From: a virus
Lineage: Duplodnaviria; Heunggongvirae; Uroviricota; Caudoviricetes
IMG/VR virus record: IMGVR_UViG_3300029305_004380
Coordinates: 2,042-66,041 of that record
Direction: 5' to 3' (one strand)
DNA: 64,000 nt
The position numbers were made by a program, and so were the translations under genes. This document shows positions 8,911-57,384 of the stretch, piece by piece (positions within the stretch are counted from its first letter, which is position 1; each line of letters starts with the position of its first letter). The notes under the pieces were generated by a model. It saw only the letters and a list, made by a program, of their open reading frames with translations. It ran no database searches and had not been told where the DNA came from.

Positions 8911-8939
8911 ATTATAACATAAATTTTTATAAATGTAAA
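8911..8939 (-). promoter_or_regulatory. sigma-A-type promoter P4 (-35 TTTACA, 17 bp spacer, extended -10 TGTTATAAT)
   Basis: Read on the minus strand: TTTACA at 8939-8934, a 17 bp spacer ending TGT, and TATAAT at 8916-8911. It lies inside a 140 bp AT-rich intergenic region about 45 nt upstream of the start of gene 8861. Confidence 0.6.
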
Positions 8940-11161: not shown

Positions 11162-11190
11162 ATTATAACACATTCTTTTATAATTGTAAA
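11162..11190 (-). promoter_or_regulatory. sigma-A-type promoter P1 inside a conserved approximately 70 bp cassette
   Basis: Read on the minus strand: TTTACA at 11190-11185, a 17 bp spacer ending TGT, and TATAAT at 11167-11162. The cassette (about 11150-11225) also carries the upstream direct repeat TTACAATTATAA. Confidence 0.6.
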
Positions 11191-11271: not shown

Positions 11272-12525
11272 TCACTCCGATGACTTAAAATTATATACAG
11301 GCTTAATAAGCTTTATAATCTCTACTGTATCTTCAATATTATTTACAATATCATTAATATTCTTATATGCTTGAGGAGATTCATCGAGAGTACCTTCATT
11401 AATACATGTAGAATAAATACCTGTCATAGATTCTGCAAAATCAGAAAGACTAATAGTTTCTTTAGCTTTACCTCTACTCATTAATCTACCAGCACCATGA
11501 GGAGCTGAATTATTGTAATCCTCGTTTCCTTTACCTTTACAAATAAGAACTCCATCTCTCATATTAATAGGAATAACTAACATTTGTCCTTCATAAGCAG
11601 CGACCGCACCTTTTCTAATTATGTTATCATCTCCAATATAATTATGAATCGTATCAAACCATTCGGTCTTAATATTATATTTCCCTTTTTGTTTAATTCT
11701 TAACTTTCCACTAGTAGATAATTGAACTTGACAATCATTGAAATAATTCTTTATAAGTTCTTCAGCGATTGTAAATCTATTCAGTGCAGCGTATTTCTGA
11801 CAAATTCTCATATCATGTAAATATTTATCTTTATCTTCACCAATAAGATAAAGTAAATTTTTAGGAATCTTATCTAACTTTGACTTATAATTATTTATGG
11901 CTTCTTGAATATCAGATTCCCTTCCAGATGCTTTCATTTCTGCTATTAAGGAATTTATATTATTCTTATCTTCTTCCTTTCCAGCTTTATTTTGATAATA
12001 CTTACATACGTCTAATCCTAAATGTCTAGAACCAGTATGAATCATAAGATATTTGTTTCCTTCAAAATCTTCATCAATTTCACAAAAATGATTCCCCGAA
12101 CCAAGCGAGCCGATAGCTCTTAATACTTTATCATATTGATGTTTTACCACATCTTTATAACAATACATATTTTCAAGTTCGTCAAATTTCTTTTTCTGTT
12201 TTGAATTAACTTCAAATCCGAAAGCAACATTTTCACGAAGTATTTTATCAAATCTCTTATAATCTATATCAACATTTCCTAATGGAATTGTTAGTACACC
12301 ACAACCAATATCGACTCCAACTAAATTAGGAACTACTTTATCTCCTAAATTAGCTGTAAATCCTATAACACATCCTGCTCCAGCGTGACAATCAGGTTGA
12401 ATTCTTATTTTACAACCTTCAACAAAAGGCTGATTTAATAATTGTATTATCTGACATATACACTCATCTTCTATAACATCTGTAAATACTTTAGCAGTAC
12501 CATATTTTCCTTTAAGTTCTAACAT
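11272..12525 (-). CDS. rtcB: RtcB-family RNA 3'-phosphate/5'-OH ligase (417 aa after start trimming)
   Basis: RtcB signatures QPDCHAGAGCVIG, VGVDIGCGV and GSGNHFCEID. The start is reassigned to the ATG at 12525 (MLELKGK...), which has a GGAGG ribosome-binding site and overlaps the stop of the upstream gene. The ORF-track N-terminus at 12570 is a read-through artefact. Confidence 0.85.
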   Translation of the reverse strand: MLELKGKYGTAKVFTDVIEDECICQIIQLLNQPFVEGCKIRIQPDCHAGAGCVIGFTANLGDKVVPNLVGVDIGCGVLTIPLGNVDIDYKRFDKILRENVAFGFEVNSKQKKKFDELENMYCYKDVVKHQYDKVLRAIGSLGSGNHFCEIDEDFEGNKYLMIHTGSRHLGLDVCKYYQNKAGKEEDKNNINSLIAEMKASGRESDIQEAINNYKSKLDKIPKNLLYLIGEDKDKYLHDMRICQKYAALNRFTIAEELIKNYFNDCQVQLSTSGKLRIKQKGKYNIKTEWFDTIHNYIGDDNIIRKGAVAAYEGQMLVIPINMRDGVLICKGKGNEDYNNSAPHGAGRLMSRGKAKETISLSDFAESMTGIYSTCINEGTLDESPQAYKNINDIVNNIEDTVEIIKLIKPVYNFKSSE

Positions 12526-12526
12526 T

Positions 12527-12838
12527 TTATTCCTCCACTTTTGTAGGTTTATAAAGAGTAGCATCTTCAAGTTCTTCTAAATCGTAAATAATGCTATTAA
12601 GTTTATCTATTACAAGTTCATTAACTTTAAATCCATTTTTATCAATAATACGTTTATCATAACTTATATGATGAATAGCTTCATCTATTCGGCTATATGC
12701 TTCTTTTATTAACCCTTTATATTTTTTATTTTCATTTTCATCTCTTGGAGTTATTTCATAAGCTTTCATAATGTTAATCCTCTCTATAATAAATTCTATA
12801 ATTTTTAAATATAACTCTATTAATAAGTTTAGTCCCAA
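12527..12838 (-). CDS. hypothetical protein (103 aa)
   Basis: ORF track; its stop abuts the rtcB start. Confidence 0.5.
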   Translation of the reverse strand: MGLNLLIELYLKIIEFIIERINIMKAYEITPRDENENKKYKGLIKEAYSRIDEAIHHISYDKRIIDKNGFKVNELVIDKLNSIIYDLEELEDATLYKPTKVEE

Positions 12839-14719: not shown

Positions 14720-14748
14720 ATTATAACATAAAAATTTATAATTGTAAA
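14720..14748 (-). promoter_or_regulatory. sigma-A-type promoter P2 inside the conserved cassette
   Basis: Read on the minus strand: TTTACA at 14748-14743, a 17 bp spacer ending TGT, and TATAAT at 14725-14720. The start of gene 14688 lies about 30 nt downstream. Confidence 0.65.
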
Positions 14749-15137: not shown

Positions 15138-15659
15138 TCATAATTGAGGTAACATTTCCAATAATTCTTCAATCTTATTTTTAGTATTATCAGATAATAT
15201 CATTTTATCTTTATTATTATCATACCAATGCTTTGCAGTACTTTTAGGATTATTATATTTAAATGATGACCAATCACATAACATTTCTATAATACAATTT
15301 AAAGGCATATCTAATATTTTTTGTTCACCTGAATCTTTTTGTAAAATCCAATATTGCCAATGATGATCATTACATTTTTGATGATGGTTCCAAGCTTCAT
15401 CATATAATGCTTCATTATCGGCACCTGCTTTAGATGGATAAAAATGATGCAAATATGGATAAAATTCTACATCATCATACTTAGATGCATCATGATTATT
15501 TATTTTATGTTCTAATTCATGCTCATTAAAATCAAACATTGTTAAAAGATCATCTTTTATAGATTCATAAGATTTCTTAACGCCATCTATATGATTTTCT
15601 AAATATTTATAATATTCTTCAGATCTATCAGATACTCTTTCAGTTAATATTTTCAACAT
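15138..15659 (-). CDS. HD-like metal-dependent hydrolase family protein, paralogue A (173 aa)
   Basis: Shares the motifs HD-x-SK, LHH, HHW(Q/E)YW and (L/I)CDW with 18677..19219. Confidence 0.5.
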   Translation of the reverse strand: MLKILTERVSDRSEEYYKYLENHIDGVKKSYESIKDDLLTMFDFNEHELEHKINNHDASKYDDVEFYPYLHHFYPSKAGADNEALYDEAWNHHQKCNDHHWQYWILQKDSGEQKILDMPLNCIIEMLCDWSSFKYNNPKSTAKHWYDNNKDKMILSDNTKNKIEELLEMLPQL

Positions 15660-17097: not shown

Positions 17098-18258
17098 TTA
17101 AATTAATTTATCTACATGTTGAAATTCATCTAATGTAAATTCATAAACTTTATTTTGAGTATGATTTTGAAATACAACATCTTTATCACTTATTATATTA
17201 TAATCGTTTGTAAATGTGTTCATTATTTCTTTAGAAATCCATTCTATAAATTTAACCGGAACACCTTGAGCTAAACATTGAATTGTAGGAATTTTACATT
17301 CATTAGGATAAAATATAAAATCATCCGGATAGCCCATTATTCTAGCATATTCTCTTATATATAAATCTCTATTTTCTACAGGATGAATAAATTGAGCTAA
17401 ACTAGTCATTGAAGGAGCCACTCCGTCAAAATCAAGTCTATATGAAGATTTATCCCATAATCTTTCTCCATTATTTTTCTTTTCAATAAAAGATTTTACT
17501 TGTTTTTTATGTTCATTCGGAATTTTTTCAATGTCTAGATTATTTAAATTGTTGTATAATCCACACATTAAAGATTCATTATGTTTTACATATCTATAAA
17601 ATTCTTCCATATTTTTAATAGCTCTGTTATTATCAAATTCCATATTGGGTGTGTCAGGAGTTAAACCTTCAAATATTTCTTTTATTGTTGTTTTATTTTG
17701 TTTAACAAATTTTATTTCAGGTATTTTTTCATATTTATTTTTATTCCAACCTACAATCATAGTTCTTAATCTTCTCATACTTACACCATGATTTCCAGCC
17801 ATATCTCGTATGATTGTAAATTTATACTTTTCACCTAATATATTCACCATATCTTTTAAAATAGGTAATCCTAAAGTCACGACTGTTGGTGCATTTTCTA
17901 TTAAAAATGTATCAGGATTTAAATGATTTATAATATCAAATACTTCATAAAATCTATTATTTACTTTATTATCTACTTTTGCATTTTTATTTATAGAACT
18001 TAATCCAGAGCATGGATTATTTGAATATAATAAGTTATAATGTTTTTCTTTTAAAGTGTCTAAGAATGCATTTTGAGACCACTCTGATGGTCTCTTAATA
18101 TTTATATTAGGATAATTCTTACAAAAATGATACGCATTAGTATCTGTCATATCTTCAGTCATTTCTAAAACAGTATCTATTTTCCATCCTGTATTTAAAT
18201 GTCCTATGGTCTGACTCCCAGAAAATATATATGCACCTATAGCTGATAATTCATTCAT
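17098..18258 (-). CDS. divergent C5-cytosine methyltransferase-fold protein (386 aa)
   Basis: C5-MTase motif order is recognisable: motif I-like IFSGSQTIG (glycines replaced), motif II LEMTED, motif IV NPCSGLS (PCQ becomes PCS), motif VI FLIENAPTV (ENV), motif VIII RRLRTMIVGW and C-terminal motif X-like QGVPVKFI. Confidence 0.7.
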   Translation of the reverse strand: MNELSAIGAYIFSGSQTIGHLNTGWKIDTVLEMTEDMTDTNAYHFCKNYPNINIKRPSEWSQNAFLDTLKEKHYNLLYSNNPCSGLSSINKNAKVDNKVNNRFYEVFDIINHLNPDTFLIENAPTVVTLGLPILKDMVNILGEKYKFTIIRDMAGNHGVSMRRLRTMIVGWNKNKYEKIPEIKFVKQNKTTIKEIFEGLTPDTPNMEFDNNRAIKNMEEFYRYVKHNESLMCGLYNNLNNLDIEKIPNEHKKQVKSFIEKKNNGERLWDKSSYRLDFDGVAPSMTSLAQFIHPVENRDLYIREYARIMGYPDDFIFYPNECKIPTIQCLAQGVPVKFIEWISKEIMNTFTNDYNIISDKDVVFQNHTQNKVYEFTLDEFQHVDKLI

Positions 18259-18676: not shown

Positions 18677-19219
18677 TCATTTTTCATATGTTTTTTCATA
18701 TTTTTTAATAATATCTTTTAACTTAAATCTACCAGAGCTATAATCATGTAATACATTAAATAAAAATGTATAAGTATCTAAATGTATTTTTATTTTACCA
18801 CTATTGTATAATCTATTAAAAGTTTTAAAAGGAATATCACAGGTCCAATTATCTTTATTATATGCTTTTCCAGCTCCTATCCAATCACATATCATTTCTT
18901 TAACATATTTAATTGGCATTTTTAATGCTTCTCCACCTGAAGAAAGATTATCAATCCAATATTCCCAATGATGTGGATTTCTTCCTCTATGATGTAACCA
19001 TGCGTATGAATATCCTTTTTCATCTTTTTCATTATCAATTGGACTTCTATCACCTGTATAATATTTAGCAGAATTAAAAAATTCAGAAAAACTAAATTTA
19101 GACCAATCATGCATAAATCCTCTAAAAGGAATTCCAGCTTCAACAGATGCTAAAAACACATAATATTTATGTCTGTTTATTATAGCAAAATGTTTTAATA
19201 ATTTTTTATAATATTTCAT
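18677..19219 (-). CDS. HD-like metal-dependent hydrolase family protein, paralogue B (180 aa)
   Basis: H-x25-HD-x-SK, WLHH, HHWEYW and ICDW motifs shared with 15138..15659. Confidence 0.5.
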   Translation of the reverse strand: MKYYKKLLKHFAIINRHKYYVFLASVEAGIPFRGFMHDWSKFSFSEFFNSAKYYTGDRSPIDNEKDEKGYSYAWLHHRGRNPHHWEYWIDNLSSGGEALKMPIKYVKEMICDWIGAGKAYNKDNWTCDIPFKTFNRLYNSGKIKIHLDTYTFLFNVLHDYSSGRFKLKDIIKKYEKTYEK

Positions 19220-19814: not shown

Positions 19815-19848
19815 TTAAAAAAACTCCAAATTTTATTTGGAGTTTTTT
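19815..19848 (-). terminator. intrinsic terminator (AACTCCAAA / TTTGGAGTT) overlapping the stop of the SpoIIID-like gene
   Basis: A 9 bp stem and 5 nt loop, followed by a T7 run in the minus-strand reading. Confidence 0.6.
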
Positions 19849-20093
19849 AGTATTAAATATTTGTGTTTAGTTGCCATGCCACCACGAATATGTTTATCTT
19901 TAAAATTTGATGCAACTAATTTTCTAACTTTTTGATATAATCTTTTATCAATGTATGGTAATTTATAAAGAAAATCGTATGACAATGTAGATTTACCAAT
20001 TCCAAACACTTTAGCAGTTTTTCGTATTGTAGATTTATTATCTACGTAATAAATTGCACAAGCTTTTATTCTATTCTCAAGTTGTTCGTTCAT
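19833..20093 (-). CDS. spoIIID: SpoIIID-like HTH transcriptional regulator (about 86 aa, start trimmed)
   Basis: AKVFGIGKSTLSYD...LP...KHIRGGMATKHKY matches the SpoIIID family (AKEFGVSKSTVHKD...IRHxRGGxATKxKY). A GGAG ribosome-binding site lies 9 nt upstream of the ATG at 20093. Confidence 0.7.
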   Translation of the reverse strand: MNEQLENRIKACAIYYVDNKSTIRKTAKVFGIGKSTLSYDFLYKLPYIDKRLYQKVRKLVASNFKDKHIRGGMATKHKYLILKNSK

Positions 20094-20142
20094 ATAAATC
20101 AACTCCTTTAATTATATTTTATTAAAGGAATCAATAAATATA

Positions 20143-21183
20143 TTATTCTTCATCGTCTTCAAATTTTGGATTTTCTAATAATAAATTATCCACTTTTAAT
20201 TTTATACTATTAAACAATTCAATATCATTATTTAAAGCATCTAACACCTTAGCTTGTCCTTGCCATTTATATTCTTTTTCATTTACTTTTGCATCAAACC
20301 ACGCTCCACCTTTATGAATCACTCCGAATTTAAGAGCTAAATCTAATAAATCTATATCTGTTCTTATTCCATTTCTGTAAAATAAAGAGCATTTAGATAT
20401 TCTTCTATCTGAAGGACATGTTTTTGATTTTACCAATTTTACTTCTATTAAATGACCTTGAGGATTTTCAGATGAACTTGAAATTTCATTGCCTTTTTCA
20501 TCAAGAAATTTTCCTTTACGAGTCATATAACGTTGAGAACATGCAAACTTCCAAGCTCTACCTCCAGGAGTAGTGATAGGATTGTACATATTACCTATAT
20601 TTTCTCTAACTTGATTTATTCCTATAAAACAAATATTATTCCTCTTTATAATAGGTGTGCACTGGTTTACAAATTGTGTTAATGGTAATGCTATTCCACC
20701 ATATGTTTTATCTTCAAATGATTTTTCAGAAGCTTGTTTAGAAAACATTGCTCCTATAGAATCTAAAATCATTAATCCGAAAGCTTCAGTTTCCATAGCT
20801 GCTTTTACTTGATCGAATATTTCTTCAGCGTATTGTCCTATACAATTTAATATAATAACTTTACTAGAATCAACGCCCATATGAGAAGCCCATTTTGCAT
20901 CATAAGTGCCTTCAACATCTATATATAAAATATATTCGTCCGGCCACAATTTTTGAAAATTAGCCATAATATCTAAACACAAGGTTGATTTTCCAGATGA
21001 TTCTTCACCATAAAATTCTATAATTCTTCCTCTTGGAACACCACCATAACTCATATAGTTTAATCTTAAACTGGAAAACGGAATTAAATCTAATTCTTTT
21101 TCTTCCATACCTAATTGTACAATTTCAGAACCATATTGTTTATTTACTTTTTTCATCCAATCCATTAAATTTGTATTAGTCAT
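20143..21183 (-). CDS. recA: RecA recombinase (bacterial type, 346 aa)
   Basis: Walker A GEESSGKST and Walker B ILDSIGA motifs. The L2-region FIGINQVRENIG...TPGGRAWKF and C-terminal HKGGAWF motifs align along the whole length with bacterial RecA. Confidence 0.9.
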   Translation of the reverse strand: MTNTNLMDWMKKVNKQYGSEIVQLGMEEKELDLIPFSSLRLNYMSYGGVPRGRIIEFYGEESSGKSTLCLDIMANFQKLWPDEYILYIDVEGTYDAKWASHMGVDSSKVIILNCIGQYAEEIFDQVKAAMETEAFGLMILDSIGAMFSKQASEKSFEDKTYGGIALPLTQFVNQCTPIIKRNNICFIGINQVRENIGNMYNPITTPGGRAWKFACSQRYMTRKGKFLDEKGNEISSSSENPQGHLIEVKLVKSKTCPSDRRISKCSLFYRNGIRTDIDLLDLALKFGVIHKGGAWFDAKVNEKEYKWQGQAKVLDALNNDIELFNSIKLKVDNLLLENPKFEDDEE

Positions 21184-21258: not shown

Positions 21259-21882
21259 TTATTTAAACCTCTTATCTTTTTGTTTACGCGATTTTAATAT
21301 ATATTTTTTATAATCATTATAATCTTTAAATTTGATATATTCACCAGAATAAACATCAAAACATGAATTATCTGCACATAATTCATATGAATTTGTTGAA
21401 CACACAATGAACACATCTTTATCCTTATTATGTTCATCTTCCATAATTGTTTTAAATAAATATTCTTTTATTTCAATAGCATTATCTATGCTTAAACCTG
21501 AATCTATAGCATCAAATAAAATCCATAATTCTTTACTATTTTTATGTTGCTGTACAAACCTTGCAATTTTGCCTGCTATAATACCAAGATTAATATATAT
21601 TTGTTCACCTTCAGATGATTGCATCAGTGTAGCTGCAGTAGTTATATCATCCTCATAAACTCTTTCAGATATTGATGTTGCTCCACCTTCATATTCATTA
21701 CTATAATATATTACTGGGATTTTAGATGATTGCAAAGACTCTTTAATTGATTGTAATAAAGTAGTTTTTCCAGATCCATTGCATCCTATTAAAATAGTAA
21801 CACCTGGATTTATTTCGATTTCTGATTTTTTATAAATGATATCATCGTATGGTTTTCTTGTAATTTTAAAAAATCTACTCAT
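21259..21882 (-). CDS. small ABC-type/SMC-like P-loop ATPase (207 aa)
   Basis: Walker A GCNGSGKTT, ABC-signature-like SEGEQ and Walker B ILFDAID motifs. Confidence 0.55.
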   Translation of the reverse strand: MSRFFKITRKPYDDIIYKKSEIEINPGVTILIGCNGSGKTTLLQSIKESLQSSKIPVIYYSNEYEGGATSISERVYEDDITTAATLMQSSEGEQIYINLGIIAGKIARFVQQHKNSKELWILFDAIDSGLSIDNAIEIKEYLFKTIMEDEHNKDKDVFIVCSTNSYELCADNSCFDVYSGEYIKFKDYNDYKKYILKSRKQKDKRFK

Positions 21883-21894
21883 TTTATGGACTCC

Positions 21895-22221
21895 TTATTC
21901 AATTCTTATAGCTCTATCATCCCAATATTCATTAGCAAAAATTTTAGGACTATTCATTGGAACTTCTGGATTTTCATTATAATATTTAGGAATAATAGTT
22001 ATAGGCATATTCATTATGCACCATTCTTTAGCAGCATTTAATGTTTCACCACTTCTACAAGTCCATAAAATAATTACTAATTCTTGTCCTCGTTTATTTA
22101 CTTCAACATTTTTATCTAACAAATGTTTAATAGTATTTTCTTTTATATTTCCTATTGCAGGATAGTTATGTTCTACTAATGTTCCATCAAAATCAAGAGC
22201 TATATAATATTTATCATACAT
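21895..22221 (-). CDS. small HAD-superfamily phosphatase-like protein (108 aa)
   Basis: N-terminal ALDFDGTL matches the DxDGT HAD motif I; a C-terminal DDR is also present. Confidence 0.4.
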   Translation of the reverse strand: MYDKYYIALDFDGTLVEHNYPAIGNIKENTIKHLLDKNVEVNKRGQELVIILWTCRSGETLNAAKEWCIMNMPITIIPKYYNENPEVPMNSPKIFANEYWDDRAIRIE

Positions 22222-22828
22222 TTTTTACAATCTCTCCTATCATTTCAATCCACCTATTATAGGTTTTTAAATATTCTTCATTAGATATTTCAGTGTATAA
22301 ATCTATTTCTCTTTTACGTTGTCCAGAGTTATCCATTAAATTACAAAACCAACCTATGCTTTCAGTATGAAGTGAAAAAATTTCTTCATACATGTTTTTA
22401 CTCTTAAATGATTTTATAGGAAGATTAAAAACCAAAGTATTCATTTTATATGGATTATTTTCTTCAACATTTAAAATCTTATAATATGCAATAGTTTCTT
22501 CATTTATAAGTCTTTTAAATGTTTTTCCAATATATTCTATATTATTAGCTATATCTTTTTTAGTTTGTTCACAATAATATTTATTAATTTGTTCATTTAA
22601 TTCATCTCTCTGTTTTTCTAAAATTTTAATATCTACTTCATCTTCATCTATCAAATTAATATCTTCTATAAGTTTTGTATTTCCATTTTCTAAAATAATT
22701 AGTTCCGATTTTGATACCCATTTAATCCAGCGATTACATTTTTGACAGTATAATCCAGTGTGAAAATCACCATAACTTAAACGTCCAAGTGTGGGTCCAC
22801 ACTTTTTACATATAGTTTCAATATTCAT
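22214..22828 (-). CDS. zinc-finger protein (204 aa)
   Basis: N-terminal CKKCGP...CQKCNRW motif. Confidence 0.5.
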   Translation of the reverse strand: MNIETICKKCGPTLGRLSYGDFHTGLYCQKCNRWIKWVSKSELIILENGNTKLIEDINLIDEDEVDIKILEKQRDELNEQINKYYCEQTKKDIANNIEYIGKTFKRLINEETIAYYKILNVEENNPYKMNTLVFNLPIKSFKSKNMYEEIFSLHTESIGWFCNLMDNSGQRKREIDLYTEISNEEYLKTYNRWIEMIGEIVKNV

Positions 22829-22842
22829 AATTACTCATTCCT

Positions 22843-23163
22843 TTAATACTTTATTTCATCAGGTGTTAATTTAACAGCTTTTTCTTTTAATTTTTTCACA
22901 TATCGTATTCCTTTATCGTTTACTTTTATTTTAAGTAAACTATCATCTTCTGAAAGTTTCCGCATTTGTTCAGTAATTGGAATTCTATAAGCCATATATA
23001 AATTTTTATAAAATACACTTTCCGAACATTCATCTGCTTTATCACCAGTATAATTTTCAAAAGATTCTGCAGTGCAATCGAATGTTTCTACTTCATAATC
23101 ACCTGAAGGAATACCGATTAATACTTTAGTATTTCTTTTAAATAAAATATCAATAATCTTCAT
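22843..23163 (-). CDS. hypothetical protein (106 aa)
   Basis: ORF track. Confidence 0.5.
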   Translation of the reverse strand: MKIIDILFKRNTKVLIGIPSGDYEVETFDCTAESFENYTGDKADECSESVFYKNLYMAYRIPITEQMRKLSEDDSLLKIKVNDKGIRYVKKLKEKAVKLTPDEIKY

Positions 23164-23179
23164 AATATATATTCCTCAT

Positions 23180-24181
23180 TTACTTATTGAATTTAATAGC
23201 ATTTTCATTAAATAAAGTATTATCACATTCCACAAAATAGTCAAATAGTGGTAACGCTAACTCTCTCATTTGAGGATGAGCAGCTTTGTCACATCTTAAT
23301 TCAAAGAAATGTCCCCATTCATAATTATGAGCAGTCATTATAATTTCAGTTTTTAAACTGTTACCAAGTACACTTCTAGCTTCTTGAGGAGTAGCTCCTA
23401 ATTCTAATAACTCAAAGTATGCTTTTTCTGAAGCTTTTATTGCATCTCTCCAAACATGATACTTGTTTCTTTCAACACTTTGAAGTTCTGCTTCACCATC
23501 AAACATTAATGGGTCAATCACCGTGATATTATTATCAAATTTATCTTTAGAATAATTACAATATCTTGTAGATTCTTGAGCATATGAAGAATCCCTATGT
23601 CTAACGATTTCATGTGATACACCTCTATCACAAATAAATTTAATAGATTTCCATCCGTGCATCCATTGTTCTTCTGGAATTAATGTATTAATATCATCGA
23701 TTTTAGTCCAATTATTTCTATGTACTTTTTTAAATTTATTACCAAATAATTCATCACAATCATAATCTAAGACTATTTGCTCACATAATTCAATTAAATG
23801 TTCTTTCATATAACTATTAGTCTTATAAGCTTCTAATAAATCTAAAAGAGACCTTGCGCTAAACGACAATATATATCTTAATTTTGTTTCAAAATTACCT
23901 TCATCATTACATGAAATAATTTCTGTCGTACTAGATGTTATATATTTTTCATTACTTAATATTTTAAAAAATAAATTATTAGGAGTATTACATTGATATA
24001 CAAATATAAAATGTTCTAACATCGCCCAATGTTTTTTATCATATAAATTTTTAATCATTTTTTTATGACTTTCATCAGTTATTAAATCTTCTGATTTATA
24101 ACAAATTCTTGCAATTTTTTCAATATGTTTTTGAGGATTGTCATCATACATTTCTTTAAATGACGGCTTTATAATTTTCAT
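23180..24181 (-). CDS. thyX: flavin-dependent thymidylate synthase ThyX (333 aa)
   Basis: ThyX signature RHRDSSYAQESTRY (RHR-x6-QESTRY). A GGAG ribosome-binding site is present. Confidence 0.85.
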   Translation of the reverse strand: MKIIKPSFKEMYDDNPQKHIEKIARICYKSEDLITDESHKKMIKNLYDKKHWAMLEHFIFVYQCNTPNNLFFKILSNEKYITSSTTEIISCNDEGNFETKLRYILSFSARSLLDLLEAYKTNSYMKEHLIELCEQIVLDYDCDELFGNKFKKVHRNNWTKIDDINTLIPEEQWMHGWKSIKFICDRGVSHEIVRHRDSSYAQESTRYCNYSKDKFDNNITVIDPLMFDGEAELQSVERNKYHVWRDAIKASEKAYFELLELGATPQEARSVLGNSLKTEIIMTAHNYEWGHFFELRCDKAAHPQMRELALPLFDYFVECDNTLFNENAIKFNK

Positions 24182-24195
24182 AATTTATCTCTCCT

Positions 24196-24900
24196 TTATA
24201 TTAATTCTGTTATATTTCCATTATCTAAATTTACATGTATCTTACATTCATTTATTAACTCGTTATGAACAACTTGTAATTGTGAAGTATTTAGTAAAAT
24301 ACTTTTATAAATACTTAATACATTATCTACAAAAATCACAATATCTACTTTATTCCAAACTTTCTTATGTGACATTAACATATAATTCATAAAAGTTGTT
24401 AAAGTTATACATAATAAATATGGAAAATTATCTGTTGTTGATTTTATAATTACATCATCCATATTATTTGTTCTAACCTCATTAGAATTTAATTGAGGTA
24501 AATCTTTACATTTATCTAATATAGATACTCCATAATCACGATTAAAATCATCCAGTAACATATTTAAGTCTCTGTTACTATTTCCAATAGTGATAATAAA
24601 TCTTTTTAATTTTTCTGCAAACTCTATTATTTGATGTGTATTTAAATTAAATTTTTTATTAATAACTTTTATACTACATAATAATGCTATTACTGAACAT
24701 TTAGTTAAAATTTTATTATCTATACTTTTTCTTATTCTATATACTTCTAACATTTTCTTAGATGATTTTGTTAATTCATTATATCCAGAATCTCTAGCAT
24801 ACTTATTTATATCATCCCAAGTTTTATTTATTTTTTGTTTTTTAATTTCTTCTTTTATTTGCTTTCTTTTTTTCTTTAATTGCAATGCAGTTTTATCCAT
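24196..24900 (-). CDS. hypothetical protein (234 aa)
   Basis: ORF track. Confidence 0.5.
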   Translation of the reverse strand: MDKTALQLKKKRKQIKEEIKKQKINKTWDDINKYARDSGYNELTKSSKKMLEVYRIRKSIDNKILTKCSVIALLCSIKVINKKFNLNTHQIIEFAEKLKRFIITIGNSNRDLNMLLDDFNRDYGVSILDKCKDLPQLNSNEVRTNNMDDVIIKSTTDNFPYLLCITLTTFMNYMLMSHKKVWNKVDIVIFVDNVLSIYKSILLNTSQLQVVHNELINECKIHVNLDNGNITELI

Positions 24901-24963
24901 TTCTTTTTATCCTTTTTATTTCTTTTCTTATATAATATAATAGACTAAATTATAAAAAATTAT

Positions 24964-25332
24964 TTAATGATAACCATATTCACTATCTATTTTTAAATCA
25001 GAAGATATACATTCATTATCATATAATTTATTTAAAGAGTTTATTTGTTCCTTAGTTATTTTTTTAGGATTAATATATGTGTTATACCAAACTGAAATAC
25101 ATCCTGTCATATTGACGAGTTCTAACATTACATCACACCAAATATCTAAAATATCAAATAATACTTCTCTTTCATAACATGTAAGATTAATTAATTTTTC
25201 TTGATGACTTGGAATTGCATATGATATATCTCCATCAGGATGAATTAATACTTCACAATAGTTTATATAATTTTCATTGTGATACTTTATAAATTCATCT
25301 ATTTTCATTTTATCAGTTCTCATAATAATCAT
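24964..25332 (-). CDS. hypothetical protein (122 aa)
   Basis: ORF track. Confidence 0.5.
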   Translation of the reverse strand: MIIMRTDKMKIDEFIKYHNENYINYCEVLIHPDGDISYAIPSHQEKLINLTCYEREVLFDILDIWCDVMLELVNMTGCISVWYNTYINPKKITKEQINSLNKLYDNECISSDLKIDSEYGYH

Positions 25333-25997
25333 CCTTCTTTTATAGCGGTTGTTCCAAATCTCTTACCTTCTGTATAACCATTTAATTCTGCATGTACACT
25401 AGTTGATTTATTTTTTATTACTCTTTCTTTTTGTGCAAAATCTTTAGTAAAATTAGAAAAATTAGTTTGTACTTCTTTATCAACCTGAACCATTAATGCA
25501 TATTTTTCTTGTTTGTTTTGTTCTTCATATTTTGCTTGAATGCCTGCAACAAATCCATTAAACCAAGAATATTTAATTCCTTTAGCGGTCCCAAATATAT
25601 CTCTATATTCTCTTGCATATTTTTCTGCTTTTTCTTCTGCAATTTCATATGCACAGTTTATAATTTCTGTAACACATTCAACATCTGTTTTAAAACCAAA
25701 TAATGTAACTCTATGAATTTTGCCATGAGTTGTAATATATTTAAGTACTCCGAAATTTTTAGTAAATACATCTATTAACATGTATATCCAAGGAATAGTT
25801 GCATTGTAATTATTTAATTCCATTTTGACGATTTCTTTATCATCTTCTTTTAAAATATCTTTTTCTTCAAGTTTATGTTTTAACATTAATTTTCTCGCAG
25901 TTGTTAAAGCACTTAATGCTTCAGCTTCAGTACAACCATTTTCAACAGTTTTATTCAATAAATGTTTTATTTTGTTTAATATAGAATTATCACACAT
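25329..25997 (-). CDS. DUF2786-like phage protein (222 aa)
   Basis: The N-terminal pattern IKHLLNKTVENGCTEAEALSALTTARKLMLKHKL is typical of the DUF2786 N-terminal helix. Confidence 0.5.
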   Translation of the reverse strand: MCDNSILNKIKHLLNKTVENGCTEAEALSALTTARKLMLKHKLEEKDILKEDDKEIVKMELNNYNATIPWIYMLIDVFTKNFGVLKYITTHGKIHRVTLFGFKTDVECVTEIINCAYEIAEEKAEKYAREYRDIFGTAKGIKYSWFNGFVAGIQAKYEEQNKQEKYALMVQVDKEVQTNFSNFTKDFAQKERVIKNKSTSVHAELNGYTEGKRFGTTAIKEG

Positions 25998-26238: not shown

Positions 26239-26267
26239 ATTATAACATATTTTCTTACATTTGTAAA
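26239..26267 (-). promoter_or_regulatory. sigma-A-type promoter P3 inside the conserved cassette
   Basis: Read on the minus strand: TTTACA at 26267-26262, a 17 bp spacer ending TGT, and TATAAT at 26244-26239. Confidence 0.65.
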
Positions 26268-26295: not shown

Positions 26296-26332
26296 TAAAA
26301 AAGGATTAGACGTTTAATCTAATCCTTTTAAA
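26296..26332 (-). terminator. intrinsic terminator (AGGATTAGA / TCTAATCCT)
   Basis: A 9 bp stem and 7 nt loop with A and T runs. It lies at the stop of gene 26333..26971 and directly upstream of P3. Confidence 0.6.
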
Positions 26333-27232: not shown

Positions 27233-29830
27233 TTAATTTATTTTATCGATTTTGTATATATAATTATGTTTAATTTCTTTATAAATATATTTCTCTATAA
27301 TCGGATATATATATGTTTGAATATATAATAAATACAATAATTTGTAAAGTTTTTCATCACATGCATGTTCACTATAATATCTAAATTTTGAATTTCTCAT
27401 TTCATCAATAAATATATCTTTAATTTCATCATATCTTGTATGAGCAGTCTCAAAATTATTTATTACAAAACATGTAGTTTCAATAAATGTTAAAAACCAA
27501 TTTTCATTTTTAAAATCTTTATCATCAATATAAAATTCACCGTTATTCCACACATTGTGTTTTTTAGCATATGTCTTTATTTCATCTACAATATATCCTA
27601 ATTTTTTAATATCTAAAGCTTCTCGTTCATTTATTTCTTCAATTGATGTATCACTATCAAATGATTCTTCATAAAAAGATTTATCAACTTCATCATATGT
27701 TAATTCAGGATGAGTTACTAAATCACTTAATTTTGCAAATGTTCTTTTTGTAGATGGTCCACATACACATCTGATATGAGTGGCATAATATAAGTCAATG
27801 TTTAATTTATTAGGCTTTATTTTATCATAATTGTCATTAAATAAATTAGATAGTTTTAAATACTCACCGGCCATTAAATATTTAGCGAACTGTTTAGCTC
27901 GTCTGTCAGTAAAATTTCTAACATTATTAATTATTTTCCAATGTGAAATAAGTTCTTTCCAATTATATTTAGAAATATCATCTACATACTGTGTAATTAA
28001 TTGTTCTTCATAAAATTCTCTATCTGTTAAAAACTTATAAGCAATTTTAAAATATTTAATTAAATAACTATAATCTAATGATGAATAATATCCAGTTGTG
28101 CTATCTCTTGAAGAACCAAATTGACCAATCTTTTTAGTATCTATAAAATACTTCATCCATATAGAATTCATATATTCAAGATTAATAAATTCAGAAGTCT
28201 CTACTTCAAAATTAGCCTTATTTTTTCTTTCATTCCACCAATCGTCTTTTTTAACAGCTATAAAAATTCTATCATTTTCAATAAGATTAATTTTATAAAG
28301 TCCAGAAGATACTTTACAATCTCTTGTAGTATTCAATTCTCCTCGAGCTCTATTGGCACTATATGTCTTACCATTACTTTCTCGAATAGATTGAATAACT
28401 AAAATAGTATCTCCAACATGATTATATTCATTTATATTTTCTACAAAGTCGGCAAAATTTCCATATCTATTATCATCTAACCAAGCATTTGCATAATTAT
28501 GAATAATATATTTAGATGTAAATCTAATATCTACTTTTTCAGGTACAGTAAGTATTTCTCTATGTTCAATTAGTCCTTGAACTACACTTAAAGCAAAATA
28601 TCTCGAAACGGCTTCACCAATAGGAGTGTTAGGAGTTTTATCATTTTCATCTATTTGTTTTACTTCAGGTTTATATATTACATCTTCTATGAAAGATAAT
28701 TTATGCTCATCCATATCAGTTTTGTCATTATCCCATTCTTCTTCAAGCCAACCCACATATAAATTTTCACCATTTCTAACAACAAATCCAATTTTATTTC
28801 CATGCAACATATCGTATGACTCTAAAATATCATCATCACTGTTGTAAAAATAATTTTTATTTGTTTTAGAACATCTAAAAAATGATATACATTTTAGTTG
28901 AGGACAAAACATTTCCATAACGGAATCCGAATATTTAAGTACTTCTTCTAAAAGTTTATAATTGCCTTCAATATCATCAGTATATATACTCATGGTTTTA
29001 GCTAAATCTTCATTAAGATATAACATTTTTTGATTAAGCACTATAGGTGTTTCTTCTGATTCTTTTTTACCTTCTCTTAATTGAATTAATTCTACAGTTT
29101 CACCTGCAAAACATCTAATAGAATAAATGTTTGTTTTCAACATAAAGATTTGCTGTTTTAATGCTTTTAATTTTTCATTAAATTCAGCCATCTTTTCATC
29201 AAGTTCAGCTATCATTGCTTGTTTCTTAGCCTCAAGTAAATTCATCTTTTCATCTATTTCTTTTTGAATTTTGGCTAATTCATCAGTTTTAGCATTTTTT
29301 ACATTTTCTATTTGTGATTTTAAATTATCCATTAATGTTGTTACTTTCTTTTGCTCACTTTTAACATCATTAATAGATAAATTTGTAATTTCAGCCGGTA
29401 GTTTACTTTCGGTTGCAGGAGTATTTCCATTTATTAACATTCTCTTTACTTCATTTAATGAATACTGAGAATAATCTGTTTCAGGTATAAATTCAACAAA
29501 ATCTTCAAGAATAAATATAGATACTTTACCATAAGATACTACTACATATTTATCAATATGCATATCTACGTTCCATGTAAAATTATTTAATTTAATATAT
29601 GCATCTACAGTTTTAGCATTATCATATCTTAATATATTAACTCCATCTGGTTTAGAATTACAATACTGTTTATTTAATATATTATCAATTGCTTTTGAAA
29701 TAACTTGAGTATCTTTTTCATTCCATTTACCATAAAAATATTGCATATATTCATCGTTAAATTTTACAACATCAAAATTTTCAGATTGAATATACTCCAA
29801 ATATTCATTAAGTTTGATATTAGATTTCAT
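27233..29830 (-). CDS. large protein of unknown function with central coiled-coil (865 aa)
   Basis: ORF track. K/E/L heptad region around residues 150-230. No catalytic motif recognised. Confidence 0.6.
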   Translation of the reverse strand: MKSNIKLNEYLEYIQSENFDVVKFNDEYMQYFYGKWNEKDTQVISKAIDNILNKQYCNSKPDGVNILRYDNAKTVDAYIKLNNFTWNVDMHIDKYVVVSYGKVSIFILEDFVEFIPETDYSQYSLNEVKRMLINGNTPATESKLPAEITNLSINDVKSEQKKVTTLMDNLKSQIENVKNAKTDELAKIQKEIDEKMNLLEAKKQAMIAELDEKMAEFNEKLKALKQQIFMLKTNIYSIRCFAGETVELIQLREGKKESEETPIVLNQKMLYLNEDLAKTMSIYTDDIEGNYKLLEEVLKYSDSVMEMFCPQLKCISFFRCSKTNKNYFYNSDDDILESYDMLHGNKIGFVVRNGENLYVGWLEEEWDNDKTDMDEHKLSFIEDVIYKPEVKQIDENDKTPNTPIGEAVSRYFALSVVQGLIEHREILTVPEKVDIRFTSKYIIHNYANAWLDDNRYGNFADFVENINEYNHVGDTILVIQSIRESNGKTYSANRARGELNTTRDCKVSSGLYKINLIENDRIFIAVKKDDWWNERKNKANFEVETSEFINLEYMNSIWMKYFIDTKKIGQFGSSRDSTTGYYSSLDYSYLIKYFKIAYKFLTDREFYEEQLITQYVDDISKYNWKELISHWKIINNVRNFTDRRAKQFAKYLMAGEYLKLSNLFNDNYDKIKPNKLNIDLYYATHIRCVCGPSTKRTFAKLSDLVTHPELTYDEVDKSFYEESFDSDTSIEEINEREALDIKKLGYIVDEIKTYAKKHNVWNNGEFYIDDKDFKNENWFLTFIETTCFVINNFETAHTRYDEIKDIFIDEMRNSKFRYYSEHACDEKLYKLLYLLYIQTYIYPIIEKYIYKEIKHNYIYKIDKIN

Positions 29831-30064: not shown

Positions 30065-30093
30065 ATTATATCAAATATAAATATAAATGTAAA
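30065..30093 (-). promoter_or_regulatory. sigma-A-type promoter P7 (TTTACA, 17 bp spacer, TGATATAAT)
   Basis: Read on the minus strand: TTTACA at 30093-30088, a 17 bp spacer, TGA then TATAAT at 30070-30065. It lies directly downstream of terminator 30130-30178. Confidence 0.55.
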
Positions 30094-31208: not shown

Positions 31209-32786
31209 TTATTCATCAATATTATCTTCAAGATATGGATTTACTACTTCAGGAAGAGATTCCTTTTCATCATTATTAATAACTGTATTATTTTCAGATG
31301 TACTTAATACACCTAAACCTTTAAGAGGTTCTGCAACTGCTTTAACGGCCTCTGAAACTGAATCATTAAATGATTTACCATTAAGAGCATTATTAGAAAC
31401 ATCTAAATGTTTCATAAGAGTAGGAATTTGTGCAAGAGTATCAAATAATACATTGTTGCCCATACCTGTTCCTGAACCACCAATGTTTACAAATTCTGCA
31501 TTCTTTCCAACTTCAGCCATTACAGTAGCCATATTTGTTGCAATCTGTACTCTTGCTTCATTTTCAATCTTAATTTTTTCAATTTCAAAATTAACCTTAC
31601 CATTTCCTGCTCTTGCTTCAGCTAATGCTTTTTCACCTTCAGCTTCGGCAAGTTTTTTCGCTTTAATTGCTTCAGCTTCTGCAATACCTTGTTTAGTAGT
31701 AATTTCAGCTTGAGTTTCACCTTCAAGTTTTATTTTATTTGCATTAGCTTGAGCTTCTCTTTCAATTGCATTTGCTTTACCAATAGCTTCTTGCTCTAAT
31801 ACTTTAGCTCTTGCTTCTGCATTAATAGTGGAAACGTTTGCTGTTTCTTGAGCTTTAATTTCCGCTTGAACTTTTTCAGCTTCAGCTCTAGTTTTAATAA
31901 CTTCCTTTTCTTTAATTGCGGCTAGATTAGCTTGTTCTTGTCTGACAACTTCAACTTTACCTTCTTGTGCAGCAACTTCTTGCATACGAATAGTTTTCTG
32001 AAGTTCACCTGCAATTGCAGCGTCTGCATTGGCTTTATCTGTTTCCGCTTTGAATTCGGCAATTTTTAAATTATTATTTTTAGTTTTTTCAGCAATTTCA
32101 AGTTCTGTATCAAGTTCACTTTGTTTAGCTATTTTTTCTGATTCTGCATTTTGTTGTCTGATTTGCTGATCAGCCATAGCTCTTACTTGTTCAGCTTCTT
32201 TTCTCTTTTCTTCTCTATCTTTAGCAGCAATATCTTCATAATAACCATTGTTATCTGTAACTTCACCTATATTAAGTGAGATTAATTTAAGACCCATATC
32301 TTTAAGTTCATCTGCAACAGCTTCTTGCACCGTTTGTTTAAACTGTTCTTTTTTAGTAGCTACTTCTTCTGGAGTCATAGTTGCAACAGTGCCAAGTACA
32401 CATCCAGCCAATGTTCTTTTAACATCTTCTTTAATACCATCACTTTTACGTTCTTTAAAAGATACTATTGCTTTAGCAAGAACTTCAGTATCAGATGAAT
32501 CAGGTCTAATTTGAGCAGTCCAATTAATAACGATAGGTACACCTGTCTTTGTCATAATTTCATCTTTATCAGCTGTAACAGTTAACATACATAAATCGAA
32601 TGTATCTGCTCTTCTAAAAATAGGAATTACAAGTCCACCTCCAGAAACTTTATAGATAGGCTCTTTTCCGCCTGTTATTATTAATACTTTATCTACAGGC
32701 ACTGTTTTATATATTTTACAAAGTAAAATAATAAAAGCCACAATAAATAAAATTATTACCCCACCGATTATTAAATATTTTTCCAT
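31209..32786 (-). CDS. flotillin-like SPFH/band-7 protein, FloT-like (525 aa)
   Basis: N-terminal TM helix, an SPFH domain (VPVDKVLIITGG...IPIFRRADTFDL...) and a long Ala/Glu-rich coiled-coil flotillin domain. An AAGGAG ribosome-binding site is present. Local GC is visibly higher than the surrounding sequence. Confidence 0.8.
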   Translation of the reverse strand: MEKYLIIGGVIILFIVAFIILLCKIYKTVPVDKVLIITGGKEPIYKVSGGGLVIPIFRRADTFDLCMLTVTADKDEIMTKTGVPIVINWTAQIRPDSSDTEVLAKAIVSFKERKSDGIKEDVKRTLAGCVLGTVATMTPEEVATKKEQFKQTVQEAVADELKDMGLKLISLNIGEVTDNNGYYEDIAAKDREEKRKEAEQVRAMADQQIRQQNAESEKIAKQSELDTELEIAEKTKNNNLKIAEFKAETDKANADAAIAGELQKTIRMQEVAAQEGKVEVVRQEQANLAAIKEKEVIKTRAEAEKVQAEIKAQETANVSTINAEARAKVLEQEAIGKANAIEREAQANANKIKLEGETQAEITTKQGIAEAEAIKAKKLAEAEGEKALAEARAGNGKVNFEIEKIKIENEARVQIATNMATVMAEVGKNAEFVNIGGSGTGMGNNVLFDTLAQIPTLMKHLDVSNNALNGKSFNDSVSEAVKAVAEPLKGLGVLSTSENNTVINNDEKESLPEVVNPYLEDNIDE

Positions 32787-34567: not shown

Positions 34568-34803
34568 ATAAATTGTAAGTGGATAACAGTTAGAGTCTTC
34601 AAGGTTTTAAGCCTTGAGCTATTGAGCATTAGCCGTATTTTTAACAAAGACTCATGTATAATGAATATTATGTGAAAGAATAAGTATAGCAAAGTAAAAA
34701 CCATAACTTATTTTAATACAAAAAATGGTTGTATGTTAAAACCACACAATGTTTATTTAGAAAGGAATGCAAAATAATGTATTTAAATCACATAATATTC
34801 ATT

Positions 34804-57310: not shown

Positions 57311-57384
57311 ATAAAAATTTTGTAATTTTTTGGAATATTGTATAAGTTGTATCAATGATGGTTATAATATTAGGTTAAATTTAA

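What the first reader, a model, noticed from the sequence alone, without database searches (positions are those of the whole stretch)
19833..20093. Phage-encoded SpoIIID homologue (mother-cell sporulation transcription factor)
The 86 aa protein matches the SpoIIID family closely (AKVFGIGKSTLSYD ... IRGGMATKHKY). SpoIIID switches sigma-E-dependent to sigma-K-dependent gene expression in endospore formers. A lytic phage carrying it, with its own terminator, suggests deliberate interference with or hijacking of host sporulation timing. It also suggests the host is an endospore-forming Firmicute.
Basis: partly seen in the sequence, partly recalled or inferred. Interest (0 to 1): 0.65.

Follow-up and report, generated by a model that had tools for sequence, protein, structure and literature searches.

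The report
Diverged SpoIIID-like regulator in large phage
A large Clostridia-type phage carries an intact but diverged copy of the sporulation regulator SpoIIID; phages with such genes have been reported since 2002, and this copy's altered DNA-reading helix suggests it has new targets instead of copying the host regulator.

Summary
The ORF at 19833-20093 (minus strand, 86 aa) belongs to the SpoIIID family: Pfam PF12116 81 bits against a cut-off of 27, PHROG 11726, PDB 2L0K E=5.6e-11, and a predicted fold with TM 0.77 to 2L0K. It sits in a phage-type replication and recombination module, after a UvsX/RecA-like gene.

It is not orthologue-grade. TIGR02844 scores 73.6 against a cut-off of 111.5, and no relative exceeds about 53% identity. 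It replaces two recognition-helix residues, Ser33 to Gly and His38 to Ser, that are invariant in 81 of 81 bacterial SpoIIIDs. The C-terminal basic DNA-binding motif is kept. His38 is lost in 8 of 11 phage or phage-like copies and in 0 of 86 chromosomal ones.

By sequence prediction, the gene is the last cistron of a ~6.4 kb unit. Its ribosome-binding site and start codon are buried in the strongest such hairpin among 100 gene starts.

Phage-borne spoIIID is already in the literature (phi3626 in 2002; Schwartz 2023) and has never been validated. This is a new member of a known kind. Hijacking of sporulation is possible but untested, and a retargeted DNA-binding regulator is at least as likely.

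The parts
19833..20093 (-). SpoIIID-family gene, 86 aa including the stop codon. Predicted helices are 3-18, 23-30, 34-48 (recognition helix) and 50-84 (C-terminal basic extension).
20091..20142 (-). RNA hairpin that pairs the whole Shine-Dalgarno (20109-20103) and the AUG (20093-20091). It starts 1 nt after the stop codon of the upstream recA/uvsX-like gene. Three G-U wobbles indicate a structure on the minus-strand RNA. Probable translational throttle or coupling device.
   Evidence: -16.5 kcal/mol, z = -5.25, 0 of 200 shuffles; the only one of 100 gene starts with a fully paired SD in a strong hairpin, against a median of -3.0. Analogous hairpins occur in L085 and L086.
19817..19848 (-). 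Intrinsic-terminator-like hairpin (A6-CUCCAAAU / AUUUGGAG-U7) overlapping the stop codon. It marks the end of the transcription unit.
   Evidence: The consensus scanner missed it.
26239..26267 (-). Consensus sigma-A extended -10 promoter TTTACA-N14-TGTTATAAT. It is the nearest upstream promoter, with no terminator between it and the SpoIIID gene.
   Evidence: 7 perfect minus-strand matches against 0.48 expected..
26303..26325 (-). Terminator of the preceding unit, which defines the 5' boundary of the SpoIIID-containing unit.
20143..21183 (-). UvsX/RecA-like recombinase gene, immediately upstream in the same unit.
   Evidence: PHROG 97, 5e-75; best phage relatives are Clostridium phages at 40% identity.
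21259..25997 (-). Remaining genes of the predicted unit: DUF2786/DUF7168 (phrog_421), several unknowns, a ThyA-like gene (23180-24181), a HAD-like gene (21895-22221) and a P-loop ATPase (21259-21882).

Best explanation
The gene encodes a functional small DNA-binding transcription regulator of the SpoIIID family, with a helix-turn-helix and a C-terminal basic helical extension.

Shown here: family membership, the predicted fold, and retention of the C-terminal basic motif.

Inferred from sequence:
- It is made early, by host sigma-A RNA polymerase, as the last cistron of a ~6.4 kb recombination and nucleotide-metabolism unit.
- It is made at a low or coupled rate, because its ribosome-binding site and start codon are locked in a hairpin that begins right after the upstream stop codon.

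Its recognition helix has lost residues that every bacterial SpoIIID keeps: Ser33 to Gly and His38 to Ser, plus Lys39 to Tyr, Thr42 to Leu and Arg44 to Lys. So it most likely reads a different DNA sequence from the host's SpoIIID. It probably acts as a retargeted regulator, repressing or activating by sitting on promoters as SpoIIID does. Its targets could be phage promoters or non-canonical host promoters. A faithful stand-in for the host mother-cell factor is less likely. The targets are unknown.
For: Family and fold.

Conserved core: T22, R24, A27, K28, F30, G31, K34, S35, T36, D40, L45, N63, H68, R70, G71, G72, A74, T75, K78 and Y79 are all kept. The gene is intact, and the protein is identical with one synonymous change in a second sample.

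Altered recognition helix: G33 and S38 replace residues invariant in 81 of 81 genome copies. His38 is also kept in 5 further copies with chromosomal context. It is replaced in 8 of 11 phage or phage-like copies (Fisher p = 1e-9; the lineages are not independent).

Paralogue expansion: three SpoIIID-family genes lie within 5 kb on a 234 kb phage-like contig, each with a different helix. This argues that phages use the fold as a general regulator.

Positions in other phages: in CB452P1 the homologue sits two genes before terS, the usual place of a late-gene activator. In phi3626 and CP51 it closes the replication module.

Expression signals: a sigma-A promoter and no intervening terminator, and no enrichment of sigma-E/K type -10 boxes.

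Translational control.
Against: - No binding site has been identified. The link from the residue changes to changed specificity rests on general helix-turn-helix geometry, not on data for this protein.
- SpoIIID has only moderate sequence specificity (recalled from the abstract of Chen 2014, which could not be read here), so host sites might still be bound.
- The family is otherwise known only from sporulation control, and spoIIID is among the genes enriched in phages of spore formers (PMC10294663).
- B. subtilis-type boxes (WWRGACAR) are not enriched in the window and none lies in a promoter region. That does not help a phage-target model unless specificity has changed.
- The operon structure and promoter are predictions.
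Confidence: 0.45

Rival explanations
1. Sporulation hijack. The phage protein binds host SpoIIID sites. Because it is made early from a sigma-A promoter, it prematurely represses sigma-E regulon genes or switches on sigK. [quoted passage not shown]
For: - The family is dedicated to mother-cell gene control in Bacilli and Clostridia (PMC517825, PMC3789822).
- The C-terminal basic region and K34-S35-T36-D40 of the helix are intact.
- spoIIID is listed among sporulation genes enriched in phages of spore formers (PMC10294663).
- Expression uncoupled from sigma-E is what a hijacker would need.
Against: - Invariant recognition-helix residues are changed.
- It fails the equivalog cut-off.
- No other sporulation-type gene was found among about 58 scanned ORFs. 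The window's sigma factor is ECF-like and not SigE/F/G/K-like.
- No phage spoIIID has been validated (PMC12713726).
- Enrichment in phages of spore formers is also what simple gene availability would give.
Confidence: 0.3
2. Architectural or nucleoid-type DNA binder. The protein coats or bends DNA with low specificity. The DNA may be the phage's own, which could be modified, as with TF1 of SPO1. It would help replication, recombination or packaging and would not regulate particular promoters.
For: - B. subtilis SpoIIID binds many sites without any transcriptional effect, and an architectural role was proposed (PMC517825).
- The gene is co-transcribed with recombination genes.
- The window carries a nucleotide-modification gene set.
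Against: - Strongly throttled translation does not fit an abundant structural DNA-binding protein.
- There is no direct evidence for DNA modification or for low specificity.
Confidence: 0.12
3. Neutral passenger or decaying remnant of a captured host gene, with no role in infection.
For: Long branch (80th percentile of terminal branch lengths in the NJ tree), and loss of residues that are otherwise invariant.
Against: - The ORF is intact, with a good SD and 20 invariant or nearly invariant (at least 90%) family positions kept.
- The model is confident and SpoIIID-like.
- Its nearest relative, P0013 at 52% identity, shares the same helix peculiarities (YYV, L37, DF), an SD hairpin and a stop-overlapping terminator. 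This indicates maintained function.
Confidence: 0.05

Closest known systems
Bacillus subtilis SpoIIID (PDB 2L0K; TIGR02844 / Pfam PF12116)
   Same: Same length class. Same predicted helix-turn-helix plus C-terminal helical basic extension (TM 0.77). It shares the T-R-AK-FG-KST-D core and the H-IRGG-ATK-KY motif, which are the two regions reported as needed for DNA binding (legend of Fig. S3 in PMC3789822, citing Himes 2010).
   Different: - Only 34-37% identical.
- Below the equivalog cut-off.
- G33, S38, Y39, L42, K44 and K67 in place of S, H, K, T, R and R.
- Located in a phage, after a recA-like gene, and not in a chromosome next to spoIIQ-type (M23 peptidase) and sporulation genes.
- Predicted sigma-A transcription, not sigma-E.
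- SD buried in a hairpin.
SpoIIID homologues of temperate Clostridium perfringens phages phi3626 (ORF42) and vB_CpeS-CP51 (gp43); PHROG 11726
   Same: Phage-borne SpoIIID-family proteins at the distal end of the replication and early module. phi3626 also lacks His38 (it has Tyr). A role in sporulation was proposed in 2002.
   Different: - 36-38% identity.
- They sit in 33-39 kb integrase-carrying siphoviruses alongside a sporulation-like sigma factor.
- No SD hairpin.
- The window comes from a phage of at least 114 kb with unidirectional genes and a T4/SPO1-style replication module.
SpoIIID-family 'DNA binding protein' of large Bacillus phages (vB_BceM-HSE3 gp024, 124 kb; YungSlug, Herelleviridae, 150 kb)
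   Same: Large phages of spore formers that carry a single diverged SpoIIID-family gene. HSE3 also lacks His38 (it has Phe).
   Different: 36-41% identity, a different host genus, and different neighbours. In YungSlug the gene sits just upstream of the endolysin and holin genes.
Phage-encoded sporulation-like sigma factors (Schwartz et al. 2022, PMC9429907)
   Same: Phage copies of sporulation transcription machinery whose native role may be either phage transcription or manipulation of dormancy.
   Different: A different protein family. For those sigma factors, heterologous expression and RNA-seq data exist. None exist for phage SpoIIID.

Membership tests
SpoIIID family (Pfam PF12116 / PHROG 11726) | Full-length profile match above the curated threshold | tested here: met
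   PF12116 scores 81.1 bits against a gathering score of 27, covering profile positions 3-79 of 82. PHROG 11726 gives 1.5e-22.
SpoIIID family (Pfam PF12116 / PHROG 11726) | Helix-turn-helix domain followed by a C-terminal helical basic extension, as in 2L0K | tested here: met
   AlphaFold model with pLDDT 83 and helices 23-30, 34-48 and 50-84. The only significant PDB match is 2L0K, TM 0.77/0.72. This is a prediction, not an experimental structure.
SpoIIID family (Pfam PF12116 / PHROG 11726) | Conserved C-terminal basic motif (R/K)H(I/L)RGGxATKxKY | tested here: met
   The window has KHIRGGMATKHKY. H68, R70, G71, G72, A74, T75, K78 and Y79 are all kept, and R67 is replaced by K.
Bona fide SpoIIID orthologue (mother-cell regulator; NCBIfam TIGR02844 equivalog) | Score above the equivalog cut-off | tested here: not met
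   73.6 bits against 111.5. Controls: Clostridium 161.6 and B. subtilis 154. Some divergent chromosomal copies also fall below the cut-off at 86-90 bits, so this shows divergence, not phage origin.
Bona fide SpoIIID orthologue (mother-cell regulator; NCBIfam TIGR02844 equivalog) | Recognition helix SKST(V/I)H with invariant Ser33 and His38 | tested here: not met
   The window has G33 and S38. Both residues are invariant in 81 of 81 genome copies and in 5 further chromosomal-context copies.
Bona fide SpoIIID orthologue (mother-cell regulator; NCBIfam TIGR02844 equivalog) | Chromosomal location among sporulation and cell-shape genes (M23 peptidase/SpoIIQ-type, SpoIIT neighbours seen here) | tested here: not met
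   The neighbours are a UvsX-like recombinase, an ATPase, a ThyA-like gene, DUF5662 and a C5 methyltransferase. Compare the chromosomal loci L088, L090 and L092.
Bona fide SpoIIID orthologue (mother-cell regulator; NCBIfam TIGR02844 equivalog) | Transcription by sigma-E RNA polymerase in the mother cell | tested here: inconclusive
   From sequence only. The nearest upstream promoter is a perfect sigma-A extended -10 type with no terminator in between. CATAWWAT boxes are not enriched, 79 against 76.7 expected. There are no expression data.
Bona fide SpoIIID orthologue (mother-cell regulator; NCBIfam TIGR02844 equivalog) | Binds SpoIIID boxes and regulates the sigma-E and sigma-K regulons | not testable with these tools
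   Needs EMSA, DAP-seq and genetics. In the window itself, the box WWRGACAR (recalled from memory in simplified form) is depleted, 24 against 41.8 +/- 6.5, and absent from promoter regions.

The most novel reading that the evidence does not exclude
Phages of endospore formers have recruited the SpoIIID fold as a general small monomeric transcription factor of their own. Copies that move into phages lose the invariant His38 and acquire new DNA specificities. They multiply into paralogue sets in jumbo-phage-like genomes. In this phage, the early-made and translation-throttled copy would act as a timing switch on phage promoters, for example by shutting off the seven near-identical sigma-A early promoters. 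It would have nothing to do with sporulation.
Probability: 0.3. Interest if true: 0.5.

Novelty: new member of a known kind. Interest (0 to 1): 0.33.

Why it matters
Phage copies of sporulation regulators are often cited as evidence that viruses steer bacterial dormancy, yet none of the spoIIID copies has been tested. This case adds two points that sharpen the question:

- The phage copies, unlike every chromosomal copy examined, have usually lost the invariant recognition-helix histidine. 'Homologue of SpoIIID' should therefore not be read as 'does what SpoIIID does'.
- This copy is wired for early sigma-A expression with tightly restrained translation.

A binding-site experiment would settle whether the protein controls the phage or hijacks the host. 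Otherwise the finding is an ordinary annotation that existing phage databases already name.

Tried and rejected
- Megablast of 10 kb around the gene against GenBank phages found nothing. The phage has no sequenced close relative.
- The largest unknown ORF (1036 aa) has no tblastn match in phages.
- Single-protein scans of viral and metagenome contigs returned no close relative and not the source contig. The look-up by exact protein returned only a 675-bp ENA contig, so the window could not be extended and structural or lysogeny genes outside it could not be checked.
- Test of whether the phage carries targets for a canonical SpoIIID: WWRGACAR is depleted and absent from intergenic regions. Rejected.
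- Test for sigma-E/K-type promoters: CATAWWAT is at chance level. Rejected.
- Test of whether the window's sigma factor (56514-57230) is a sporulation-type sigma, as in phi3626: only weak ECF-like matches. Rejected.
- A candidate middle-promoter motif, CTATTATAWWTAWWA, was only weakly enriched: 11 against 5.5 expected, and 4 of 100 shuffles reached 11. Not pursued.
- Test of whether the 'NF..KH' C-terminal variant marks a phage-only clade: rejected. Several members are chromosomal, next to SpoIIT, an M23 peptidase and ACP.
- The NJ tree uses 76 columns and is too weak to infer the donor lineage.
- The primary papers on SpoIIID-DNA contacts (Himes 2010; Chen 2014) and on phi3626 (Zimmer 2002) are not held in the library. 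Statements about contact residues rest on general helix-turn-helix geometry and on memory of the abstracts.
- The consensus terminator scanner missed the terminator. Folding and a custom scan found it.

Full report
**1. What is there**

On the minus strand, an ORF runs from ATG 20093-20091 to TAA 19835-19833 and encodes 86 aa. An AAAGGAG Shine-Dalgarno lies 9 nt upstream of the start.

The protein matches SpoIIID by several independent measures:
- Pfam SpoIIID (PF12116) at 81.1 bits against a gathering score of 27, over nearly the whole profile.
- PHROG 11726 'sporulation stage III protein D' at 1.5e-22.
- The solved B. subtilis SpoIIID, 2L0K, at 5.6e-11.
- An AlphaFold model built on an 8-sequence alignment (pLDDT 83.4) has helices 3-18, 23-30, 34-48 and 50-84. 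Its only significant PDB match is 2L0K, with TM 0.77/0.72.

The identical protein, with one synonymous nucleotide change, occurs on a contig from an independent ENA sample.

**2. Is the setting a phage?**

The window has 25% GC, and all credible genes are on the minus strand. It carries a T4/SPO1-style replication, recombination and nucleotide module:
- UvsX/RecA-like recombinase (20143-21183)
- SbcC/SbcD-like (38955-41839)
- gp32-like SSB (44779-45828)
- primase (45873-46823), helicase (46884-48473) and 5'-3' exonuclease (48501-49511)
- RuvC-like resolvase (50494-51072)
- NAD ligase (51435-53450)
- two ThyA-like genes, a dCMP deaminase and a dUTPase
- a C5 DNA methyltransferase
- RtcB, YopX, two DUF5662 genes and two tRNAs
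- a very divergent sigma factor (56514-57230)

The closest UvsX-like proteins in GenBank phages belong to Clostridium sporogenes phages, at 40% identity. There is no nucleotide-level relative. About 58 ORFs were scanned, and none is an integrase, a recognisable lysogeny repressor or a structural gene. The exact protein is recorded on a 114.6 kb contig, which could not be fetched.

'Phage' is well supported. 'Lytic' is plausible from the genome style but not shown.

**3. How close is it to SpoIIID?**

It is not close.
- HMMER against 1.84 billion representative proteins finds 1378 relatives, and the best single-domain one is 53% identical.
- A scan of 185,579 species genomes finds 588 relatives. 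The best 80 are all Clostridia or Bacillota, apart from two MAG contigs labelled otherwise, and none exceeds 51% identity.
- NCBI's equivalog model TIGR02844 gives 73.6 bits against a cut-off of 111.5. A chromosomal Clostridium SpoIIID scores 161.6 and B. subtilis scores 154.
- Other phage copies score 65-106 bits. Some divergent chromosomal copies, in SpoIIT / M23-peptidase / ACP synteny, also fall below the cut-off at 86-90 bits. The cut-off therefore measures divergence, not phage residence.

**4. Residue-level comparison**

The protein was compared position by position with 81 bacterial copies.

Kept:
- The family core: R8, Y15, T22, R24, A27, K28, F30, G31, K34, S35, T36, D40, L45 and N63.
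- The whole C-terminal basic motif: H68, I69, R70, G71, G72, A74, T75, K78 and Y79.

This motif and the helix-turn-helix are the two regions reported as essential for DNA binding (Fig. S3 legend of PMC3789822, citing Himes 2010).

Changed:
- Ser33 to Gly and His38 to Ser, at two positions that are invariant in 81 of 81 copies. Both lie at the start of, or within, the predicted recognition helix (34-48).
- The neighbouring Lys39 to Tyr, Thr42 to Leu and Arg44 to Lys.

By general helix-turn-helix geometry, positions 5, 6 and 9 of the recognition helix face the bases, and here those are residues 38, 39 and 42. This is my inference; the primary structural papers were not available.

The loss of His38 follows a pattern:
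- It is kept in all 81 genome copies and in 5 further metagenomic copies with clear chromosomal context.
- It is replaced in 8 of 11 copies from phages or phage-like contigs: window S; P0013 Y; P0015 F; three paralogues on L099 with S, Y and E; phi3626 Y; HSE3 F; CB452P1 F.
- CP51 and YungSlug keep it.

Fisher's exact test gives p = 1e-9, but the lineages are not independent, so this is indicative only.

**5. Regulatory anatomy (all predicted from sequence)**

Promoters. The window contains seven perfect minus-strand matches to TTTACA-N14-TGnTATAAT, against 0.48 expected and none of 100 shuffles reaching the observed total of 9 (which includes two 1-mismatch plus-strand matches). These are near-consensus sigma-A promoters of the Gram-positive extended -10 type.

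Terminators. A custom hairpin-plus-U-tract scan finds eight terminators on the minus strand.

The transcription unit. The SpoIIID gene lies in a unit bounded as follows:
- the terminator at 26303-26325,
- the promoter at 26239-26267,
- the hairpin and U7 at 19817-19848 (-14.6 kcal/mol, z = -4.9).

No terminator lies in between. The gene is therefore the last of about eleven cistrons of a ~6.4 kb early unit. The 'own terminator' is the operon's terminator.

The translation start. Between the recA-like stop codon (20143-20145) and the start codon there is a 15-bp stem, extended by a 5-bp outer stem. It pairs the entire SD and the AUG (-16.5 kcal/mol, z = -5.25). Three G-U wobbles show that the structure belongs to the minus-strand RNA. 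Among 100 predicted gene starts in the window, this is the only one with a fully paired SD in a strong hairpin; the median is -3.0 kcal/mol.

Because the 5' arm starts 1 nt after the upstream stop codon, a terminating ribosome would open it. Translation is probably coupled to, and limited by, translation of the recombinase gene.

Relatives. The closest relative, P0013 (52% identity), shares the odd helix features, an SD-pairing stem and a terminator overlapping its stop codon. P0015 (53% identity) lies between nrdD and nrdG on a phage-like contig that also encodes a 5-hmdU DNA kinase domain. It also has its SD in a hairpin (-12 kcal/mol, z = -2.3). The temperate-phage copies do not have such a hairpin.

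**6. What it probably does**

Three points seem safe:
- It is a maintained DNA-binding protein.
- It is made early by host sigma-A polymerase and not by sigma-E.
- It is made sparingly.

Whether it targets the host sporulation programme or something else is open.

- The family is otherwise dedicated to mother-cell gene control.
- spoIIID is on the list of sporulation genes enriched in phages of spore formers (PMC10294663).

Against a faithful mimic:
- The recognition helix is altered.
- No other sporulation-type gene was found in the window.
- The window's sigma factor is not SigE/F/G/K-like.

For a retargeted, possibly phage-directed regulator:
- The phage-associated loss of His38.
- Three paralogues with different helices within 5 kb on a 234 kb phage-like contig.
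- The position of homologues at the early/late boundary in small phages. In CB452P1 the homologue is two genes before terS. In phi3626 and CP51 it sits at the end of the replication module.

Two negative results bear on this. Canonical boxes (WWRGACAR, recalled from memory in simplified form) are depleted in the window, 24 against 41.8 +/- 6.5, and absent from promoter regions. Sigma-E/K -10 boxes are at chance level.

My estimates are: retargeted regulator about 0.45, sporulation hijack about 0.30, architectural binder about 0.12, and inert passenger about 0.05.

**7. Novelty**

Phage-borne SpoIIID homologues are established in the literature and databases:
- phi3626 ORF42 is annotated 'similar to sporulation specific transcriptional regulator SpoIIID'. 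The paper title says the phage 'possibly affects sporulation' (Zimmer 2002, cited in PMC3442830).
- CP51, HSE3 and PHROG 11726 carry the same annotation.
- The gut-phage survey lists it (PMC10294663).
- A 2025 review lists it as 'not validated' (PMC12713726).
- Large virulent phages carry such genes too, for example YungSlug of the Herelleviridae.

This is a new and unusually diverged member of a known kind. The recognition-helix pattern and the translational hairpin are the only additions, and both are computational.

Noticed in passing
window 8911-8939, 11162-11190, 14720-14748, 26239-26267, 30065-30093, 56360-56388, 57283-57311 (all minus strand): Seven perfect TTTACA-N14-TGnTATAAT promoters, against 0.48 expected. 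The promoters at 11190, 14748 and 26267 also share a nearly identical ~35-bp upstream cassette, ttacagttt(t/a)attacaattataa(g/a)aaaa(g/c)gg. This could be an UP element or an operator. Several of these promoters carry repeated TTACAA-like words.
   Followed up: partly
window 23180-24181, 49525-50451, 38152-38874, 36193-36735, 36855-38135, 17098-18258: Two ThyA-like genes, a dCMP deaminase, a dUTPase, a weak match to a T4-type glucosyltransferase, and a C5 DNA methyltransferase. A related contig (L086) encodes a 5-hmdU DNA kinase domain. The phage DNA may carry hydroxymethylated or otherwise hypermodified pyrimidines.
   Followed up: no
window 56514-57230 (-): 238-aa sigma-70-family protein. 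It has only a Sigma70_r2 match (29.8 bits) and weak ECF-like hits. It is probably the phage's own middle or late sigma factor and is not a sporulation-type sigma.
   Followed up: partly
window 57445-60555, 61746-63971, 27233-29830 (-): Three large ORFs (1036, 741 and 865 aa) with no Pfam, NCBIfam or PHROG family. The 1036-aa ORF has no tblastn match in GenBank phages. No recognisable DNA polymerase was found in the window.
   Followed up: partly
window 15138-15659 and 18677-19219 (-): Two paralogous DUF5662 genes lie 3 kb apart, one of them two genes downstream of the SpoIIID gene.
   Followed up: no
window 34705-35662 and 11272-12570: A ~960-bp stretch without long ORFs holds tRNA-Leu(UAA) and tRNA-Gln(UUG). 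An RtcB RNA ligase gene lies elsewhere in the window. Together these may counter host tRNA-cleaving defences.
   Followed up: no
window 41858-43159 (-) and 31209-32786 (-): A 433-aa protein has a MazF-like N-terminal domain (PHROG 1936, 5.6e-18). A 525-aa protein has an SPFH/Band 7 domain. Both are unusual in a replication module.
   Followed up: no
L099 8001-8450, 11998-12441, 12712-13143 (234 kb contig; also L100): Three SpoIIID-family paralogues of 143-149 aa, each with a C-terminal extension and a different recognition helix, lie within 5 kb of a unidirectional contig made mostly of ORFans. The contig looks like a jumbo phage. One neighbour has only a remote match to Salicola phage SCTP-2.
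   Followed up: partly
proteins P0009 (337 aa), P0011 (383 aa), P0061 (599 aa), P0010, P0012, P0016: These proteins consist of two to six tandem SpoIIID-type helix-turn-helix repeats. I do not recall this architecture being described for the family.
   Followed up: no
whole window: The B. subtilis-type SpoIIID box WWRGACAR is under-represented: 24 against 41.8 +/- 6.5, and 99 of 100 shuffles had at least as many. This could be avoidance of host SpoIIID binding or a composition effect. The motif was recalled from memory in simplified form.
   Followed up: partly
L141-L146, L149, L150 (GenBank 'UNVERIFIED: Bacteriophage sp.' gut contigs): All carry fully canonical SpoIIID sequences (SKSTVHKD and NKSERHIRGG). 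They may be bacterial chromosomal fragments filed as phage, which would inflate counts of phage-borne spoIIID.
   Followed up: no
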